The translations under genes and the position numbers were made by a program. From the sequence record OL825705.1: a stretch of 64,000 bases of DNA. One strand, given 5' to 3'. A model generated the notes under the pieces. That model did not search any database and was not told where the DNA came from. It worked only from the letters and a program-made list of their open reading frames with translations. Positions 5,665-23,655 of this stretch are shown piece after piece (within the stretch, counting starts at the first letter, position 1; each line of letters begins with the position of its first letter). Source of the DNA: Escherichia phage vB_EcoM_DE7.

Positions 5665-5692
5665 GAAAATAAAAAAGGCTCCCGAAGGAGCC
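5665..5692 (-). terminator. rho-independent terminator downstream of endolysin gene
   Basis: GGCTCC-CGAA-GGAGCC hairpin followed by T-run on minus strand. Confidence 0.65.
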
Positions 5693-5702
5693 TATGAAGA
5701 TA

Positions 5703-6167
5703 TTACTTTGGGTATACACTGTCAAGATAAATGTCAGCTTCCATTCTACGTCTGTTTTTCAGACCGTTTGAAGTGACCTTCTTACCTTTGACTGTAACCT
5801 TGTTCCACCACTGCATAGCTTCTGCACAACCTACCTTGTTACCAGCATTGTGGCGCTTGATAAATGTAGAATCCTGCATAGCTGTGATACCGATGTTGTA
5901 TGTTTCACTTACAAGTGCATCGAACTCATTCTGAGAAGTTGGAACCTTGATAGCTTTATTCACTGCTGCAACAAACTTCTCAACATCTGCGAGAAGATAA
6001 TGTTCAGCTTGTTCAGCAGTAATTTTCATACCCATCTTAACAGGTTTTCCGTCAATACGGATTGTACCATACCCAATTGTTGGGATTCCGGCAGAGTCTT
6101 CGTAAGCCTCTAACTTCAGACCTTCAAAGAACTTAATAGCCTCTAAACCTTTTCTTGAGAGTTGCAT
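5703..6167 (-). CDS. endolysin, GH24 (T4/lambda-type) lysozyme
   Basis: N-terminal LEAIKFFEGLKLEAYEDSAGIPTIGYGT matches lysozyme catalytic region. Confidence 0.8.
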   Translation of the reverse strand: MQLSRKGLEAIKFFEGLKLEAYEDSAGIPTIGYGTIRIDGKPVKMGMKITAEQAEHYLLADVEKFVAAVNKAIKVPTSQNEFDALVSETYNIGITAMQDSTFIKRHNAGNKVGCAEAMQWWNKVTVKGKKVTSNGLKNRRRMEADIYLDSVYPK

Positions 6168-7300
6168 TATGCCTCCCCTGTTGGGTTAACTGTAACTGTT
6201 GCTACATTAGACGTTACAGAGCCACCTGCACCAGTAACTACACAGGTGTAGCTTCCTGCATCAGCAGCAGTTGCACCTTCTTTGGTATAAGTTGCAGTAG
6301 TTGCGTCTAGGATGTTTTCCTCACCCTTCTTCCACTGATAACCTGTCGCACCAGTAGCCACAACACTTAGTGTCAAGGTATCACCTTCAGTGATTTCTTG
6401 ATTGGTTGGCTGCTGAGTGATAACTGGCAAAGCATTTACCGTGATTGTTGCAGGGTTAGAAGTAACAGAACCTCCAGCACCAGTTACAACACAAGTATAG
6501 GAACCTGCATCTGCTGGCAGTGCACCAGACTTGCTATAGGTAGCGTTTGTAGCTGAAGGGATGTCAGAGCCATCTTTCTTCCACTGGTAACCTGTTGCAC
6601 CTGTTGCAGTCACTGATAGACTGATGTTTCCACCTTCATTAATGGTCTGGCTAGAAGGTTGCTGTGTAATCACAGGCAGTGCGTTCACAGTAACTGTTGC
6701 TGCATCTGAGGTGACACTTGTTCCACCCTCTCCAGATACAACACAAGTGTATGAACCAGCATCAGAAGGTGCTACGGATTGTTTTGTGTAAGTTGCAGAA
6801 GTGGCACTGGGGATGTCCTCACCATCCTTCTTCCACTGATATCCAGTGGCGTTAGTTGCTAGAACACTTAAAGTAAGTGTGCCACCCTCATTGACTGTTT
6901 GGCCTGTTGGTTGCTGAGTAATTGCTGGTGGCTTAATAGCATCCTTCAGCTTAGCATTCAACATTGAGAACGGCTTAACTCTTGCCAACCATTCACAATA
7001 CACTGTGTCAACGTCTTTACCATTGATGATTGCATACTGTAAATCCATGAAGAAATCAGCAGTTCTCATCTGTGCACCAACACTGTAAAGGAGTTCATCA
7101 CTAAAAGGAACTTTGTAGTCTGGTTTGTAGTCAAACTTCGCAACCTCTGCAATATCAGCTTCAGGCCAATATGAGCTATAGGTGAGTGGTAAAATAGCTT
7201 CTTGATATGTTCTAAAATCATATCTCTTACCAGCCTTTACATTTGCAACGAAACCTTTTACAAATTCTTTGAAGTCTGGGTAAGTCTTTGCTTTAATCAT
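6167..7300 (-). CDS. protein with N-terminal domain plus three tandem Ig-like domains (377 aa)
   Basis: Three about 80-aa repeats each with ITQQP...GATGYQWKKDG...AGSYTCVV...VTVN motifs. Confidence 0.6.
   Translation of the reverse strand: MIKAKTYPDFKEFVKGFVANVKAGKRYDFRTYQEAILPLTYSSYWPEADIAEVAKFDYKPDYKVPFSDELLYSVGAQMRTADFFMDLQYAIINGKDVDTVYCEWLARVKPFSMLNAKLKDAIKPPAITQQPTGQTVNEGGTLTLSVLATNATGYQWKKDGEDIPSATSATYTKQSVAPSDAGSYTCVVSGEGGTSVTSDAATVTVNALPVITQQPSSQTINEGGNISLSVTATGATGYQWKKDGSDIPSATNATYSKSGALPADAGSYTCVVTGAGGSVTSNPATITVNALPVITQQPTNQEITEGDTLTLSVVATGATGYQWKKGEENILDATTATYTKEGATAADAGSYTCVVTGAGGSVTSNVATVTVNPTGEA
6175..6950 (-). repeat. Three tandem about 240 bp coding repeats (Ig-like domains)
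   Basis: Repeated protein motifs; nucleotide repeats visible (e.g. ccactggtaacctgt...). Confidence 0.6.
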
Positions 7301-7668
7301 TTCTTTTTAGCCTCTAAACGTGCGTTTAATCTAAAATAGCCTTTGTGTTGTGGAGACACATCACTAACAACAATACCTTCAACTTTATAACCCTTACCAA
7401 TTACATACTGGATATCCATAAGAAACGTACCAAGCCCAACAATGTGGAACATTGGGTACAATAACTTATCGGAATCTGGGAGATTAATATCTGGGATGTA
7501 GGTAGGTTGTTTACTAGTTGGTGTGATATCTTCTTCAGGCCATTTGCTAAGTCTCCATGTTAAAGGTGATGCAATAACATCGTTAAGATTATATCTCTCA
7601 CCTTTCTCCACAGAATTAATATAGGATTGTAGGAAGCAATAAAAGTCTTTTGCACTCTTAGCCTTCAT
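7297..7668 (-). CDS. hypothetical protein (123 aa), paralogous to the N-terminal domain of the Ig-like protein
   Basis: MKAKSAKDF...KWPEEDI...LLYP...FLMDIQYVI parallels MIKAKTYPDF...YWPEADI...LLYS...FFMDLQYAI. Confidence 0.55.
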   Translation of the reverse strand: MKAKSAKDFYCFLQSYINSVEKGERYNLNDVIASPLTWRLSKWPEEDITPTSKQPTYIPDINLPDSDKLLYPMFHIVGLGTFLMDIQYVIGKGYKVEGIVVSDVSPQHKGYFRLNARLEAKKK

Positions 7669-7715
7669 TAAATATCCTTATAAATAGATAAAGGGGCATT
7701 AGCCCCTGTTTATAC

Positions 7716-8306
7716 TTAAGCTTTTGTCTTAAGTAAGTTCTTAAGCTTTTTGAGATTCATGCTCTCGTCAAACTTAAAACCAAATCCATTGACATAATCA
7801 ATGAACTCGGATTTCTTGCTAAGTGATAATGCGTAGCTCATATCAAAGTTATTACTTGTTTCTGCGTCTGGACTAGAGTTCACATCAAATGAAATTTCTG
7901 TAGGCTCTTGCTTGCTACTTCTCATATTATCAATCAATAGACAGGTGTAGTTCGCTGGATAGAAGTTAACACTCCCATCAACATACCCATACTTATTATT
8001 GTGAATAAGGCTGGAAAATACCTTAAGAAATGTTTCTGAGTCGTGGCATACAAGTTTGAATTGACTGCATTCCCCAAGAGCCACTAAAGAGTAAGGGCTT
8101 TCACTATCAATGTCGTAGTTTGGATTTGATGTTGTAACCGTCACACGCATCAAGTTATTAGCAATAGTCTTCTGCTTGAAAGAATTTGGGACATAGTGAA
8201 GACCTCTATCACACTGATTAACTAACTCTTTAAGTAGGTCATTTGCATATGGTGAATTAATTGATACAGAGCCATCACTATTATAATTAAAACTTACTGT
8301 TAACAT
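7716..8306 (-). CDS. hypothetical protein (196 aa)
   Basis: Intact ORF. Confidence 0.5.
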   Translation of the reverse strand: MLTVSFNYNSDGSVSINSPYANDLLKELVNQCDRGLHYVPNSFKQKTIANNLMRVTVTTSNPNYDIDSESPYSLVALGECSQFKLVCHDSETFLKVFSSLIHNNKYGYVDGSVNFYPANYTCLLIDNMRSSKQEPTEISFDVNSSPDAETSNNFDMSYALSLSKKSEFIDYVNGFGFKFDESMNLKKLKNLLKTKA

Positions 8307-8925: not shown

Positions 8926-9297
8926 ATGAAAAACAGAACAAACAAAGGCCAGTTTAAAAAAGGCCAGTCTGGAAACCCATCTGGAAGACCAAAAGGCTCT
9001 CGTAACAAAAGCTCTCTCGTAAAAGCTCAGCTGACCATTGATAATTCTGCTGAGTTTGCTGCAAAGTTGTTTGAGGCAATTGTTACAAGGGACGCTGCTA
9101 AGCTTGCAGAGTTCGGTTTGACGACTGACGATGTAAACCTGAAGTCAATGATGGAAGCTGGTAAAACTATCATGACCCACTCAGCAGGTGAGATGAAAGC
9201 AATTGCAGCAGACACTAAGAAGACCCCTGATAACGGTGGTCAGTCTCAGACAGATAACAAACCAACGTTCTCTGCTGTAGCGACTCTCAAAAAATAA
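8926..9297 (+). CDS. hypothetical basic protein with KGQSGNPSGRPKG motif (123 aa)
   Basis: ATG with AAGAGG RBS; Gly/Pro/basic N-terminal motif; function unknown. Confidence 0.5.
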   Translation: MKNRTNKGQFKKGQSGNPSGRPKGSRNKSSLVKAQLTIDNSAEFAAKLFEAIVTRDAAKLAEFGLTTDDVNLKSMMEAGKTIMTHSAGEMKAIAADTKKTPDNGGQSQTDNKPTFSAVATLKK

Positions 9298-22551: not shown

Positions 22552-23655
22552 ATGTTGACTAATTCTGAAAAAAGCAGATTTTTCCTTGCTGACCTGACTG
22601 GTGAAGTCCAGTCTATCCCAAATACTTATGGGTATATTTCCAACTTAGGTCTGTTCCGTTCAGCACCAATCACCCAAACTACTTTCCTTATGGACTTGAC
22701 TGATTGGGATGTTAGCTTGCTTGATGCAGTAGACCGTGATAGCCGTAAAGCAGAGACTAGCGCACCTGAGCGTGTTCGTCAAATCAGCTTCCCAATGATG
22801 TACTTCAAAGAAGTTGAAAGCATCACTCCTGATGAAATTCAGGGTGTACGTCAGCCAGGCACTGCAAACGAGCTTACTACTGAAGCTGTAGTACGTGCTA
22901 AGAAGCTGATGAAGATTCGTACCAAGTTTGATATTACTCGTGAGTTCCTGTTTATGCAAGCTCTGAAGGGTAAAGTTGTCGATGCTCGTGGTACTCTGTA
23001 CGCTGACCTGTACAAGCAGTTCGATGTTGAGAAGAAGACTGTTTACTTCGACCTTGACAACCCTAATGCTGATATCGACGCTTCTATTGAAGAACTGCGT
23101 ATGCACATGGAAGACGAAGCGAAGACTGGCACTGTAATCAACGGTGAAGAAATTCACGTAGTTGTTGACCGTGTGTTCTTCAGCAAGCTGACTAAACATC
23201 CTAAGATTCGTGACGCTTATCTTGCACAGCAGACTCCGCTGGCTTGGCAACAGATTACTGGTTCTCTGAGAACTGGTGGTACTGACGGCGTTCAGGCTCA
23301 CATGAACACTTTCTACTACGGTGGTGTTAAGTTTGTCCAGTACAACGGTAAGTTCAAAGACAAGCGTGGTAAGGTTCACACTCTGGTGAGCATTGATGGT
23401 GCAGCAGCAACTGTTGGTGTTGGTCATGCCTTCCCTAACGTTTCTATGCTGGGTGAAGCAAACAACATCTTCGAAGTGGCTTATGGTCCATGTCCTAAGA
23501 TGGGTTACGCAAATACACTTGGTCAGGAACTGTACGTATTCGAATACGAAAAAGACCGTGACGAAGGTATTGACTTCGAAGCTCACTCTTACATGCTGCC
23601 ATACTGTACTCGTCCTCAGTTGCTGGTAGATGTTCGTGCTGACGCCAAAGACTAA
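22552..23655 (+). CDS. major capsid protein (lambda gpE-like)
   Basis: 367 aa ORF, strongly biased codon usage, position after protease/scaffold and decoration gene. Confidence 0.7.
   Translation: MLTNSEKSRFFLADLTGEVQSIPNTYGYISNLGLFRSAPITQTTFLMDLTDWDVSLLDAVDRDSRKAETSAPERVRQISFPMMYFKEVESITPDEIQGVRQPGTANELTTEAVVRAKKLMKIRTKFDITREFLFMQALKGKVVDARGTLYADLYKQFDVEKKTVYFDLDNPNADIDASIEELRMHMEDEAKTGTVINGEEIHVVVDRVFFSKLTKHPKIRDAYLAQQTPLAWQQITGSLRTGGTDGVQAHMNTFYYGGVKFVQYNGKFKDKRGKVHTLVSIDGAAATVGVGHAFPNVSMLGEANNIFEVAYGPCPKMGYANTLGQELYVFEYEKDRDEGIDFEAHSYMLPYCTRPQLLVDVRADAKD

What the first reader, a model, noticed from the sequence alone, without database searches (positions are those of the whole stretch)
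6167..7668. Ig-like triple-repeat protein and a paralogous single-domain gene next to the endolysin
The 6167-7300 protein has a roughly 120-aa N-terminal domain followed by three tandem Ig-like domains (ITQQP...YQWKKDG...AGSYTCVV). The adjacent gene 7297-7668 encodes only a paralogue of the N-terminal domain. The gene lies in the lysis-adjacent cluster rather than the structural module, which is unusual for Ig-like phage proteins that normally decorate virions.
Basis: seen in the sequence. Interest (0 to 1): 0.5.

Follow-up and report, generated by a model that had tools for sequence, protein, structure and literature searches.

The report
Known capsid decoration protein plus anchor-only paralogue
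The Ig-repeat gene is the already described Hoc-like capsid decoration protein of Felix O1-type phages, so it is ordinary; the small gene beside it is an old, conserved copy of the capsid-anchor domain alone, and none of the papers I could search describes it.

Summary
ORF 6167-7300 (-) encodes 377 aa: an N-terminal domain of about 122 aa plus three I-set Ig domains. ORF 7297-7668 (-) encodes a 123-aa paralogue of that N-terminal domain (35% identity, E 2e-17). A GH24 endolysin follows.

The window is a Felixounavirus genome. The Ig protein is the orthologue of Bas63 Hex-Dec (PDB 9NCF, E 1e-268) and Sf14 gp20 (PDB 9C2D). Cryo-EM shows these as monomers plugged into the centres of the 60 pentamer-adjacent hexamers of the T=9 capsid. 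Mass spectrometry finds them in Sf14 and Felix O1 (gp36) virions. The gene's position outside the structural module is already published.

The paralogue is not mentioned in the papers I searched. It is a real gene:
- dN/dS is 0.13.
- It lies directly upstream of Hex-Dec in 29 of the 31 distinct relatives examined.
- It arose from one old duplication.
- Its Felix O1 orthologue (ORF37) is transcribed late.

It has replaced the capsid-anchoring Arg79 and Arg107. It is absent from the Felix O1 virion protein list and, by inference, from VpaE1's. One sublineage has lost it by decay. Its role is unknown; a transient role at the capsid during assembly is my best guess (about 0.35).

The parts
7692..7707 (-). 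Terminator-like GC hairpin followed by a T-rich tail, just upstream of the paralogue; it marks the start of the three-gene cassette.
   Evidence: Found by the scan. The sequence AGGGGCTAATGCCCCTTT is conserved in relatives, including those without the paralogue. The Felix O1 paper's terminator table lists a near-identical hairpin sequence.
7297..7668 (-). Gene for the 123-aa paralogue, which consists of the capsid-binding domain (CapBD) alone. It belongs to PHROG 4463 and corresponds to Felix O1 ORF37, Sf14 gp21 and Bas63 bas63_0125.
   Evidence: - Family: PHROG 4463, E 1.9e-77.
- Paralogy: 35% identity to the Hex-Dec N-terminus, E 2e-17.
- Fold: the AF2 model (pLDDT 68) matches only 9c2d_S and 9ncf_S in the PDB, TM 0.61-0.62.
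- Selection: dN/dS 0.13.
- Fixed difference: Gly78 (codon 7435-7437) is invariant where Hex-Dec has the invariant Arg79.
6929..7300 (-). Hex-Dec capsid-binding domain (CapBD), residues 1-124. The anchoring residues are Arg79 (codon 7064-7066) and Arg107 (codon 6980-6982).
   Evidence: Residues 1-299 are near-identical to 9ncf_S, and residues 1-371 align to 9c2d_S. R79 and R107 are invariant in 34 of 34 relatives. The Sf14 paper assigns these arginines to salt bridges with MCP Asp221.
6677..6928 (-). Ig-like (I-set) domain 1, residues 125-208.
   Evidence: Pfam Ig_3 best stretch at residues 124-189.
6428..6676 (-). Ig-like (I-set) domain 2, residues 209-291.
   Evidence: Pfam Ig_2 and I-set best stretches at residues 209-288.
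6167..6427 (-). Ig-like (I-set) domain 3 (residues 292-377) plus the stop codon.
   Evidence: This unit aligns to the fourth Ig domain of Bas63 Hex-Dec.
5703..6167 (-). GH24 endolysin. Its start codon overlaps the Hex-Dec stop by 1 nt (TAATG).
   Evidence: PF00959, E 1.7e-40, and PHROG 7 endolysin. The junction sequence is shown.
5676..5693 (-). Terminator-like hairpin plus a T-run directly after the endolysin; it marks the end of the cassette.
22552..23655 (+). Major capsid protein gene (367 aa), the docking partner of Hex-Dec. Asp221 is present.
   Evidence: Found with a peptide from the Felix O1 MCP. Residue 221 is D within KIRDAYL. The role of Asp221 is taken from the Sf14 paper.

Best explanation
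**Identity of the Ig protein.** The window is a Felix O1-like (Felixounavirus) phage genome. Gene 6167-7300 encodes the genus's Hoc-like hexamer decoration protein (Hex-Dec).

**How Hex-Dec works.** This is shown in close relatives and inferred here by orthology.
- It is made late in infection.
- Its N-terminal domain of about 120 aa plugs as a monomer into the centre of the 60 pentamer-adjacent hexamers of the T=9 capsid.
- Arg79 and Arg107 hold it there by salt bridges to Asp221 of the major capsid protein.
- The three acidic Ig domains project outward as a flexible fibre.
- By analogy with T4 Hoc, the fibre probably adheres weakly to surfaces, glycans or cells.
- The number of Ig units varies from 1 to 4 between relatives, in steps of one 83-84-aa repeat. 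This window has 3.

**The paralogue.** Gene 7297-7668 is a translationally coupled upstream paralogue that keeps only the capsid-binding fold.
- It arose from one old tandem duplication.
- It is under purifying selection.
- It carries 25 fixed differences from Hex-Dec, including loss of both anchoring arginines.
- It is not on the published virion protein list of Felix O1 and, by inference, not on VpaE1's.

**My committed reading of the paralogue (probability about 0.35, inferred and not shown).** It is a non-virion or only transiently bound accessory protein. It still acts at capsomer centres during head assembly, for example on proheads or in competition with Hex-Dec, and so modulates where or when Hex-Dec docks. 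It is dispensable.
For: **Identity of the phage and of Hex-Dec**
- The region is 97% identical in DNA to Escherichia phage vB_EcoM-LTH02, and 224 Ounavirinae records cover at least 80% of it.
- Hex-Dec matches 9ncf_S at E 1e-268 and 9c2d_S at E 6e-172.
- The papers report binding at hexamer centres, the R79/R107-D221 salt bridges, detection by MS, and the gene's position outside the structural module.
- R79 and R107 are invariant in 34 of 34 sequences. D221 is present in this window's MCP.
- Felix O1 gp36 is the orthologue and was found in virions.
- Hex-Dec lengths among relatives are 210, 294, 377 and 461 aa.

**The paralogue as a real, diverged gene**
- Paralogy: E 2e-17.
- Fold: the model matches only the two solved capsid-binding domains.
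- Distribution: it lies directly upstream in 29 of the 31 distinct relatives examined, and the start/stop overlap is conserved.
- Selection: dN/dS is 0.13, against 0.044 for the Hex-Dec capsid-binding domain.
- Phylogeny: the paralogue clade and the Hex-Dec clade each have 200/200 bootstrap support, including a distant 87-kb phage that keeps the pair.
- More distant lineages, including one like Erwinia phage phiEa104, have a single anchor gene at the same locus.
- There are 25 fixed between-family differences and 30 shared invariant positions. The conservation profiles of the two families correlate (Spearman 0.32, p 5e-4).
- Mean pI is 8.0, against 5.5 for the Hex-Dec capsid-binding domain.
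- Felix O1 ORF36 and ORF37 are both maximally transcribed late.
- ORF37 is absent from the Felix O1 virion MS list, although it yields 6-7 good tryptic peptides.
- The VpaE1 text reports only gp54, gp58 and gp68 as virion proteins beyond those of Felix O1. The paralogue's absence there is my inference.
Against: **For Hex-Dec:** nothing substantive. Virion presence and capsid binding are not shown for this exact phage, only for relatives that are about 90% or more identical in the binding domain.

**For the proposed role of the paralogue:**
- There is no direct evidence of any capsid or prohead binding.
- Both cryo-EM studies report no density on the hexamers that Hex-Dec leaves free.
- Phages that have lost the paralogue (SP116, REP10, FGS030) still keep an intact Hex-Dec and form plaques. 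Hex-Dec therefore does not need it.
- Distant single-copy anchors with Big_2 display domains also lack Arg79. Loss of that residue alone therefore does not prove a changed target (alignment).
- The AF2 model is only of moderate confidence (pLDDT 68).
Confidence: 0.85

Rival explanations
1. One reading: the Ig-repeat protein sits in a lysis cluster because it has a separate, non-virion function, for example one related to lysis or the cell envelope.
For: The gene is flanked by terminator-like hairpins together with the endolysin and overlaps it by 1 nt. This synteny (anchor protein followed by lysozyme) is conserved even in distant lineages.
Against: Orthologues are resolved on capsids by cryo-EM and were found in virions by MS. 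The anchoring residues and their MCP partner are conserved here. Felix O1 RT-PCR places ORF36 with the late morphogenesis genes and places the endolysin ORF35 in the middle class.
Confidence: 0.03
2. The paralogue is a low-copy virion protein that caps the capsomers lying on symmetry axes (the 20 three-fold hexamers or the 11 pentamers). A monomer there is smeared by icosahedral averaging, and 11-20 copies of a 14-kDa protein could escape mass spectrometry.
For: The capsid-binding fold is retained. The residues that differ are exactly those that the Sf14 paper says fit only the quasi-three-fold hexamers. The pI is basic, opposite the acidic Asp221 ring. Hex-Dec leaves exactly these capsomers free.
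Against: Both papers report no density on the other hexamers. The Sf14 paper describes protrusions in its 4.5 A asymmetric map and places this decoration protein only at the quasi-three-fold hexamers. The protein is not on the Felix O1 virion list, although the 9.7-kDa gp23 was detected there. By inference it is not in the VpaE1 virion proteome either.
Confidence: 0.15
3. The paralogue has taken on a new, non-capsid target (a host protein or a defence or counter-defence interaction) and merely re-uses the small fold.
For: There are 25 fixed differences, including both anchoring arginines. It evolves about three times faster than the Hex-Dec capsid-binding domain. It is not detected in virions. 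It is dispensable and has been lost in one sublineage. There is precedent for a capsid decoration protein with a second intracellular target: P4 Psu inhibits Rho (abstract listed).
Against: Its most conserved segments coincide with those of the Hex-Dec capsid-binding domain, and an invariant partner-facing block suits a slowly evolving partner such as the MCP. It has stayed tightly adjacent to, and coupled with, Hex-Dec through a long divergence. No known family or defence-related match was found.
Confidence: 0.25
4. The paralogue is a dedicated escort for Hex-Dec. It pairs with the Hex-Dec binding domain in the cytoplasm and prevents premature or wrong docking.
For: The ATGA overlap implies coupled synthesis. 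The fold is pseudo-two-fold and could in principle pair with a like fold.
Against: Phages lacking the paralogue keep an intact Hex-Dec with 1-2 Ig domains. To my knowledge, Hoc and pb10 have no dedicated chaperone. No interaction has been tested.
Confidence: 0.12
5. The 123-codon ORF is a decaying, functionless duplicate or is not a gene at all.
For: It is dispensable: about 20 of 252 phage records have only the Hex-Dec copy. The four I examined share the same remnant, with the start codon lost and an internal deletion.
Against: dN/dS is 0.13 over 366 pairwise comparisons at dS about 0.8. The ORF is intact at 122-124 codons in all other relatives. It has long invariant blocks of its own. Felix O1 ORF37 is transcribed.
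Confidence: 0.03

Closest known systems
Hex-Dec of Escherichia phage Bas63 (PDB 9NCF chain S) and gp20 of Shigella phage Sf14 (PDB 9C2D/9C3A chain S): Ounavirinae hexamer-centre decoration proteins
   Same: Direct orthologues of ORF 6167-7300. The N-terminal capsid-binding domain is near-identical, R79 and R107 are present, tandem I-set Ig domains follow, and the gene sits in the same place between the paralogue and the endolysin.
   Different: Only the number of Ig units differs: 3 here, 4 in Bas63 and 3 in Sf14. The range among the relatives I examined is 1-4. The Bas63 paper already describes this variation.
[quoted passage not shown]
   Same: It works the same way. A monomer sits at the hexamer centre, a small capsid-binding domain carries a string of Ig-like domains, the surface is acidic, and the protein is non-essential. 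The PHROG 'Hoc-like' families match the Ig region.
   Different: The domain order is reversed, with Hoc's capsid-binding domain at the C-terminus. The Bas63 paper calls the binding domains topologically distinct with minimal sequence similarity. The resemblance is therefore analogous architecture plus shared Ig modules, not membership of the Hoc family.
T5 pb10 (gene N5) decoration protein
   Same: [quoted passage not shown] It binds hexamer centres. Its Ig domain matches residues 132-206 here (5lxk_A and 8zvi_a, E ~2.5e-12).
   Different: pb10 has one Ig domain. There is no detectable similarity in the capsid-binding domain, because the PDB matches cover the Ig region only.
Single-copy anchor-plus-display proteins of more distant relatives (for example the Erwinia phage phiEa104 BIG2-domain protein, and metagenomic P0099-P0103)
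   Same: They share the N-terminal anchor family (profile E 1e-4 to 2e-9; fold match TM 0.50). Where the contigs extend far enough, they occupy the same locus between the PHROG 4034-like gene and the lysozyme.
   Different: The display module is Big_2, another Ig type, or a K/S/E-rich tail. There is only one anchor gene per locus and no anchor-only paralogue.

Membership tests
Ounavirinae Hex-Dec / Sf14 gp20 decoration protein (tested for ORF 6167-7300) | The N-terminal capsid-binding domain is homologous to the solved chains. | tested here: met
   phmmer gives E 1e-268 to 9ncf_S (residues 1-299 aligned almost without change) and E 6e-172 to 9c2d_S.
Ounavirinae Hex-Dec / Sf14 gp20 decoration protein (tested for ORF 6167-7300) | The anchoring arginines R79 and R107 are present, together with the partner Asp221 in the major capsid protein. 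| tested here: met
   R79 and R107 are present and invariant in 34 of 34 relatives. The MCP at 22552-23655 has D221. The roles of these residues are taken from PMC11821841.
Ounavirinae Hex-Dec / Sf14 gp20 decoration protein (tested for ORF 6167-7300) | C-terminal tandem I-set Ig-like domains. | tested here: met
   Three stretches each of Ig_3, Ig_2 and I-set.
Ounavirinae Hex-Dec / Sf14 gp20 decoration protein (tested for ORF 6167-7300) | Physically present on virions at the centres of the pentamer-adjacent hexamers. | not testable with these tools
   This is shown for the orthologues by cryo-EM and by MS (Sf14; Felix O1 gp36). It is inferred here from about 90% or higher identity in the binding domain.
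T4 Hoc family | A C-terminal Hoc-type capsid-binding domain preceded by Ig domains. | tested here: not met
   Here the binding domain is N-terminal. The Hoc-like PHROG matches cover only residues ~120-300. The Bas63 paper reports reversed order and a distinct topology.
Hex-Dec-type decoration protein (tested for the paralogue, ORF 7297-7668) | The capsid-binding-domain fold. | tested here: met
   35% identity over 121 aa, E 2e-17. The AF2 model matches only 9c2d_S and 9ncf_S, TM 0.61-0.62, probability 1.0. Model confidence is moderate (pLDDT 68).
Hex-Dec-type decoration protein (tested for the paralogue, ORF 7297-7668) | The anchoring arginines R79 and R107. | tested here: not met
   The aligned positions are an invariant Gly78 and a variable Gln/His/Asn/Lys107 in 31 of 31 paralogues.
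Hex-Dec-type decoration protein (tested for the paralogue, ORF 7297-7668) | An outward display module (Ig or Big_2). | tested here: not met
   The protein ends 4-5 residues after the binding domain. It has no Pfam domain.
Hex-Dec-type decoration protein (tested for the paralogue, ORF 7297-7668) | Presence in purified virions. | not testable with these tools
   Published lists do not include it. The Felix O1 shotgun MS lists gp36 but not gp37. The VpaE1 text reports no such extra protein, but its Table S2 is held only as an image. The Sf14 paper does not mention gp21.
PHROG 4463 (unknown function) | A full-length profile match. | tested here: met
   E 1.9e-77, residues 1-123 against profile positions 1-123 of 123.

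The most novel reading that the evidence does not exclude
The anchor-only paralogue is a display-less capsomer cap. It occupies capsomer centres that Hex-Dec cannot use, namely three-fold hexamers, pentamers or unexpanded prohead hexamers. In this way it sets, or complements, the selective 60-of-80 hexamer occupancy of Hex-Dec. It has been missed because a monomer on a symmetry axis is averaged away in icosahedral maps and because its copy number is low or its binding is transient.
Probability: 0.15. Interest if true: 0.5.

Novelty: new member of a known kind. Interest (0 to 1): 0.27.

Why it matters
For the Ig protein there is little at stake. It confirms that the common database label 'tail protein' is wrong and that the gene encodes the published Hoc-like capsid decoration protein.

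The paralogue is a small but clean open question. It is a conserved, late-expressed copy of a structurally solved capsid anchor. It has lost the display domains and the known anchoring residues, and it does not appear in published virion protein lists.

Working out its role would show how decoration-protein placement on T=9 capsids is controlled, or how a capsid-binding fold is put to a new use. It is also relevant to using the Hex-Dec anchor as a display scaffold on Felix O1-type phages used for therapy or diagnostics. The tools to test this already exist: cryo-EM maps, a Bas63 knockout library and the Sf14 MS data.

Tried and rejected
- **Tandem Repeats Finder** did not report the Ig repeat at DNA level. 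The units are only 64-70% identical, so I established the repeat at protein level instead.
- **T4 'Inh' lead.** A 'faint' Pfam Phage_Inh_N mark on a distant homologue of the upstream 196-aa gene suggested a link to T4 Inh. A direct scan at E<=1 of this and two homologues found nothing, so I dropped it.
- **Retron Ec67 lead.** The PhageMaP preprint reports Bas63 g123 as a trigger of retron Ec67, and I briefly suspected that g123 was the paralogue. The locus tags show that g123 is the endolysin, g124 is Hex-Dec and g125 is the paralogue. The paralogue is not discussed there, and no supplement is held.
- **VpaE1 virion MS table (Table S2)** is held only as an image. The paralogue's absence from VpaE1 virions is inferred from the main text.
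- **Other papers.** The 2018 Shigella phage paper (PMC5874400) is not held. The wV8 proteome paper is uninformative on this point.
- **Word-indexed homologue searches** found only close relatives. The exhaustive profile search was needed to reach the distant single-copy anchors.
- **Link between paralogue loss and Ig copy number.** I considered this and rejected it. Phages with a 1-Ig Hex-Dec, such as EC6, keep the paralogue, and paralogue-less phages have 1-Ig or 2-Ig Hex-Dec.
- **Heterodimer or capsid-complex prediction** was not attempted.
Full report
**1. Checking the observation**

ORF 6167-7300 gives 377 aa and ORF 7297-7668 gives 123 aa.

Pfam finds three consecutive Ig-type stretches in residues ~124-375: Ig_3 at E 1.6e-33, Ig_2 at E 4.2e-28 and I-set at E 1.3e-24. 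It finds nothing in residues 1-123 and nothing in the 123-aa protein.

The three Ig units are 83-86 aa long. They are 69-73% identical in protein and 64-70% identical in DNA. That level of DNA identity explains why Tandem Repeats Finder did not report them.

The 123-aa protein aligns end to end with residues 2-119 of the larger protein, at 35% identity and E 2e-17.

The next gene downstream, 5703-6167, is a GH24 phage lysozyme (PF00959, E 1.7e-40).

The paralogue's stop codon overlaps the Hex-Dec start as ATGA. The Hex-Dec stop overlaps the endolysin start as TAATG.

Terminator-like hairpins lie just upstream of the paralogue (7707-7692) and just after the endolysin (5693-5676). The three genes therefore look like one cassette.

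**2. What the Ig protein is**

The region is 97% identical to Escherichia phage vB_EcoM-LTH02. At least 80% of it is covered in 224 phage records, all Felix O1-like (Ounavirinae) apart from one anomalous record labelled Staphylococcus phage SA1.

A sequence search of the PDB gives E 1e-268 to 9ncf chain S, labelled 'immunoglobulin-like domain protein'. It gives E 6e-172 to 9c2d/9c3a chain S, labelled 'tail protein'.

These chains are Hex-Dec of phage Bas63 (PMC12609058) and gp20 of phage Sf14 (PMC11821841). Both papers show the following:
- A monomer is plugged into the centre of the pentamer-adjacent hexamers of a T=9 capsid.
- In Sf14, Arg79 and Arg107 form salt bridges to Asp221 of three of the six capsid subunits.
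- The Ig domains project outward and are too flexible to be resolved.

Sf14 gp20 was detected in particles by mass spectrometry. The Felix O1 orthologue is ORF36, a 294-aa 'tail protein' next to the lysin ORF35. It was found in CsCl-purified virions at 44% coverage.

In this window R79 and R107 are present, and they are invariant in 34 of 34 relatives. The window's own major capsid protein gene (22552-23655, + strand) has Asp221.

The Bas63 paper makes three further points:
- This decoration gene lies more than 10 kb outside the structural module.
- It is widely mis-annotated as a tail protein.
- The number of Ig domains varies within the genus.

My own set of relatives shows Hex-Dec lengths of 210, 294, 377 and 461 aa, corresponding to 1-4 Ig units.

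A knockout-library preprint reports that Bas63 g124 is dispensable on three K-12 hosts but more important on strain S17-1. The locus tags confirm that g124 is Hex-Dec.

The Ig protein is therefore an ordinary, already described virion decoration protein.

**3. Relation to Hoc and pb10**

The protein works like T4 Hoc and T5 pb10. All three combine a monomeric plug at the hexamer centre with Ig domains.

It is not a member of the Hoc family. The domain order is reversed, and the published comparison finds the binding domains topologically distinct. The PHROG 'Hoc-like' matches and the PDB pb10 matches here cover only the Ig region.

**4. The paralogue**

Neither structural paper mentions the neighbouring gene. 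Searches for 'paralog', and in the Sf14 paper for gp21, returned no relevant passage. The gene belongs to PHROG 4463, of unknown function (E 1.9e-77).

*It is a real, constrained gene.*
- In the 31 distinct relatives examined it lies directly upstream of Hex-Dec as an intact ORF of 122-124 codons in 29 (31 of 34 sequences, counting the window and duplicate records). The start/stop overlap is conserved.
- Pairwise dN/dS is 0.13. This compares with 0.044 for the Hex-Dec binding domain and 0.13 for Ig domain 1.
- Felix O1 ORF36 and ORF37 are both maximally transcribed late, together with morphogenesis genes.

*It keeps the fold.* The AlphaFold2 model has moderate confidence (pLDDT 68, pTM 0.68). 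In the PDB it matches only the two solved capsid-binding domains, at TM 0.61-0.62 and probability 1.0. Among predicted viral structures it matches its own orthologue, the Hex-Dec proteins and a BIG2-domain protein of Erwinia phage phiEa104.

**5. Evolutionary history of the anchor family**

An exhaustive profile search of 1.84 billion representative proteins found only 12 family representatives. They fall into three groups:
- a paralogue clade;
- a Hex-Dec clade;
- a few distant proteins in which the same N-terminal anchor carries a Big_2 domain, another Ig-type domain, or a K/S/E-rich tail.

A distant 87-kb phage contig still has the full arrangement of paralogue, then Hex-Dec, then lysozyme.

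The more distant lineages have only one anchor gene. Where the contigs extend far enough, it lies between the homologue of the upstream 196-aa gene and the lysozyme.

In a neighbour-joining tree the paralogue clade and the Hex-Dec clade each have 200/200 bootstrap support. This indicates one old tandem duplication. The order of branching relative to the single-copy lineages is not resolved.

**6. How the paralogue has diverged**

- Of 119 aligned columns, 30 are invariant and identical in both families. These probably form the fold core.
- A further 25 columns are invariant within each family but differ between them. They include R79>G78, N93>K92, K95>Y94, W104>V104 and M113>R113.
- Arg107 aligns with a variable Gln/His/Asn/Lys.
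- The paralogue has its own invariant block, YPMFHIVGLG, where Hex-Dec has the Arg79 loop.
- It is more basic, with mean pI 8.0 against 5.5.
- The conservation profiles of the two families are correlated (Spearman 0.32, p 5e-4).

One caution applies. Two distant single-copy anchors also lack Arg79 (alignment). One of them carries a Big_2-like display domain and is presumably a decoration protein. Loss of Arg79 therefore shows a changed binding mode on this phage's capsid protein. It does not prove that capsid binding is lost.

**7. Where the paralogue protein is, and whether it is needed**

It is not among the Felix O1 virion proteins, although it would yield 6-7 well-sized tryptic peptides and the 9.7-kDa gp23 was detected.

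The VpaE1 virion proteome is described as adding only gp54, gp58 and gp68 to the Felix O1 set. The underlying table is held only as an image, so the paralogue's absence there is an inference.

Both cryo-EM studies see no density on the hexamers that Hex-Dec leaves empty.

About 20 of 252 phage records have only the Hex-Dec copy. The four I examined (SP116, Z31, REP10, FGS030) share the same remnant, with the start codon lost, small indels and an internal deletion of about 230 nt. This points to a single loss by decay. Three of the four keep an intact Hex-Dec with 1 or 2 Ig domains. Z31's Hex-Dec is split. The paralogue is therefore dispensable, and Hex-Dec does not depend on it.

**8. Most likely mechanism**

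*Hex-Dec (confidence about 0.95, by orthology).* It is synthesised late. The N-terminal domain docks as a monomer into the 60 pentamer-adjacent hexamer centres through Arg79 and Arg107 to Asp221. Three acidic Ig domains (the Ig part has mean pI 4.5 across relatives) form an outward fibre with a Hoc-like adhesive or sensing role.

*The paralogue.* What is shown is paralogy, purifying selection, late transcription in Felix O1, absence from the Felix O1 virion list, and dispensability. What it does is inferred. My committed reading (about 0.35) is a non-virion or only transiently bound accessory protein that still acts at capsomer centres during head assembly. The rivals are:
- a new, non-capsid target (about 0.25);
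- a low-copy cap on symmetry-axis capsomers that icosahedral averaging and MS would miss (about 0.15);
- an escort for Hex-Dec (about 0.12);
- a functionless duplicate (about 0.03).

**9. Verdict**

The finding is real, but its main element is already known and published. The unusual genomic position is a conserved and already noted feature of this phage group.

The only new element is the anchor-only paralogue: a small, well-defined open question that could be tested with existing maps, MS data and knockout libraries.

- Interest: 0.27.
- Novelty: new member of a known kind.

Noticed in passing
window 10976-11410 (+), next to tRNA-Pro at 10960-11036: An ORF with an HNH endonuclease motif (PF01844, E 1.8e-4) sits between tRNA-Pro and tRNA-Met. 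The relative EF202P1 has tRNA-Glu(ttc) at this position. ARAGORN finds 24 tRNAs in the window but no tRNA-Glu, so a homing-endonuclease insertion may have displaced a tRNA gene.
   Followed up: partly
window 5703-6167 (-), endolysin: A knockout-library preprint (PMC11482910) reports that the Bas63 orthologue of this endolysin (g123, per locus tags) becomes 'more nonessential' in several defence backgrounds. It also reports that g123 is toxic only in cells carrying retron Ec67, which would make it a candidate retron trigger.
   Followed up: partly
L002 2306-2497; L003, L045 and L046 at the equivalent positions: Phages SP116, Z31, REP10 and FGS030 carry the same decayed remnant of the paralogue, about 190 nt long. 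The start codon is lost, there is an internal deletion, and the 3' end is retained. In Z31 the Hex-Dec gene itself is split into ORFs of 134 and 55 aa.
   Followed up: yes
L039 5001-5462 (P0102); L036 869-1489 (P0099); L042 3182-3799 (P0103): Distant relatives carry the same N-terminal capsid anchor fused to other display modules: Big_2, another Ig type, or a K/S/E-rich low-complexity tail. Where the flanks are held, the locus is the same, between the homologue of the upstream 196-aa gene and the lysozyme. The anchor therefore behaves as a modular display scaffold.
   Followed up: partly
window 9379-10794 (+) and 8926-9297 (+): A DUF2828/DUF7788 protein (annotated 'RNA-binding protein' in relatives) and a DUF5681 protein are transcribed divergently from the cassette, just before the 24-tRNA cluster (10960-16410). 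This arrangement is conserved even in the distant lineages (L039, L042).
   Followed up: no
GenBank GU169904.1 (Staphylococcus phage SA1), positions 143190-143558: A record labelled as a 147-kb Staphylococcus phage contains a Felix O1-type paralogue and Hex-Dec at 86% protein identity. This probably reflects a chimeric or contaminated assembly.
   Followed up: no
window 7716-8306 (-): The 196-aa gene upstream of the cassette (PHROG 4034, unknown function) is syntenic with the anchor gene in every lineage examined, including those with a single anchor gene. It has no detectable family. A faint Phage_Inh_N mark on a distant homologue was not reproduced.
   Followed up: partly
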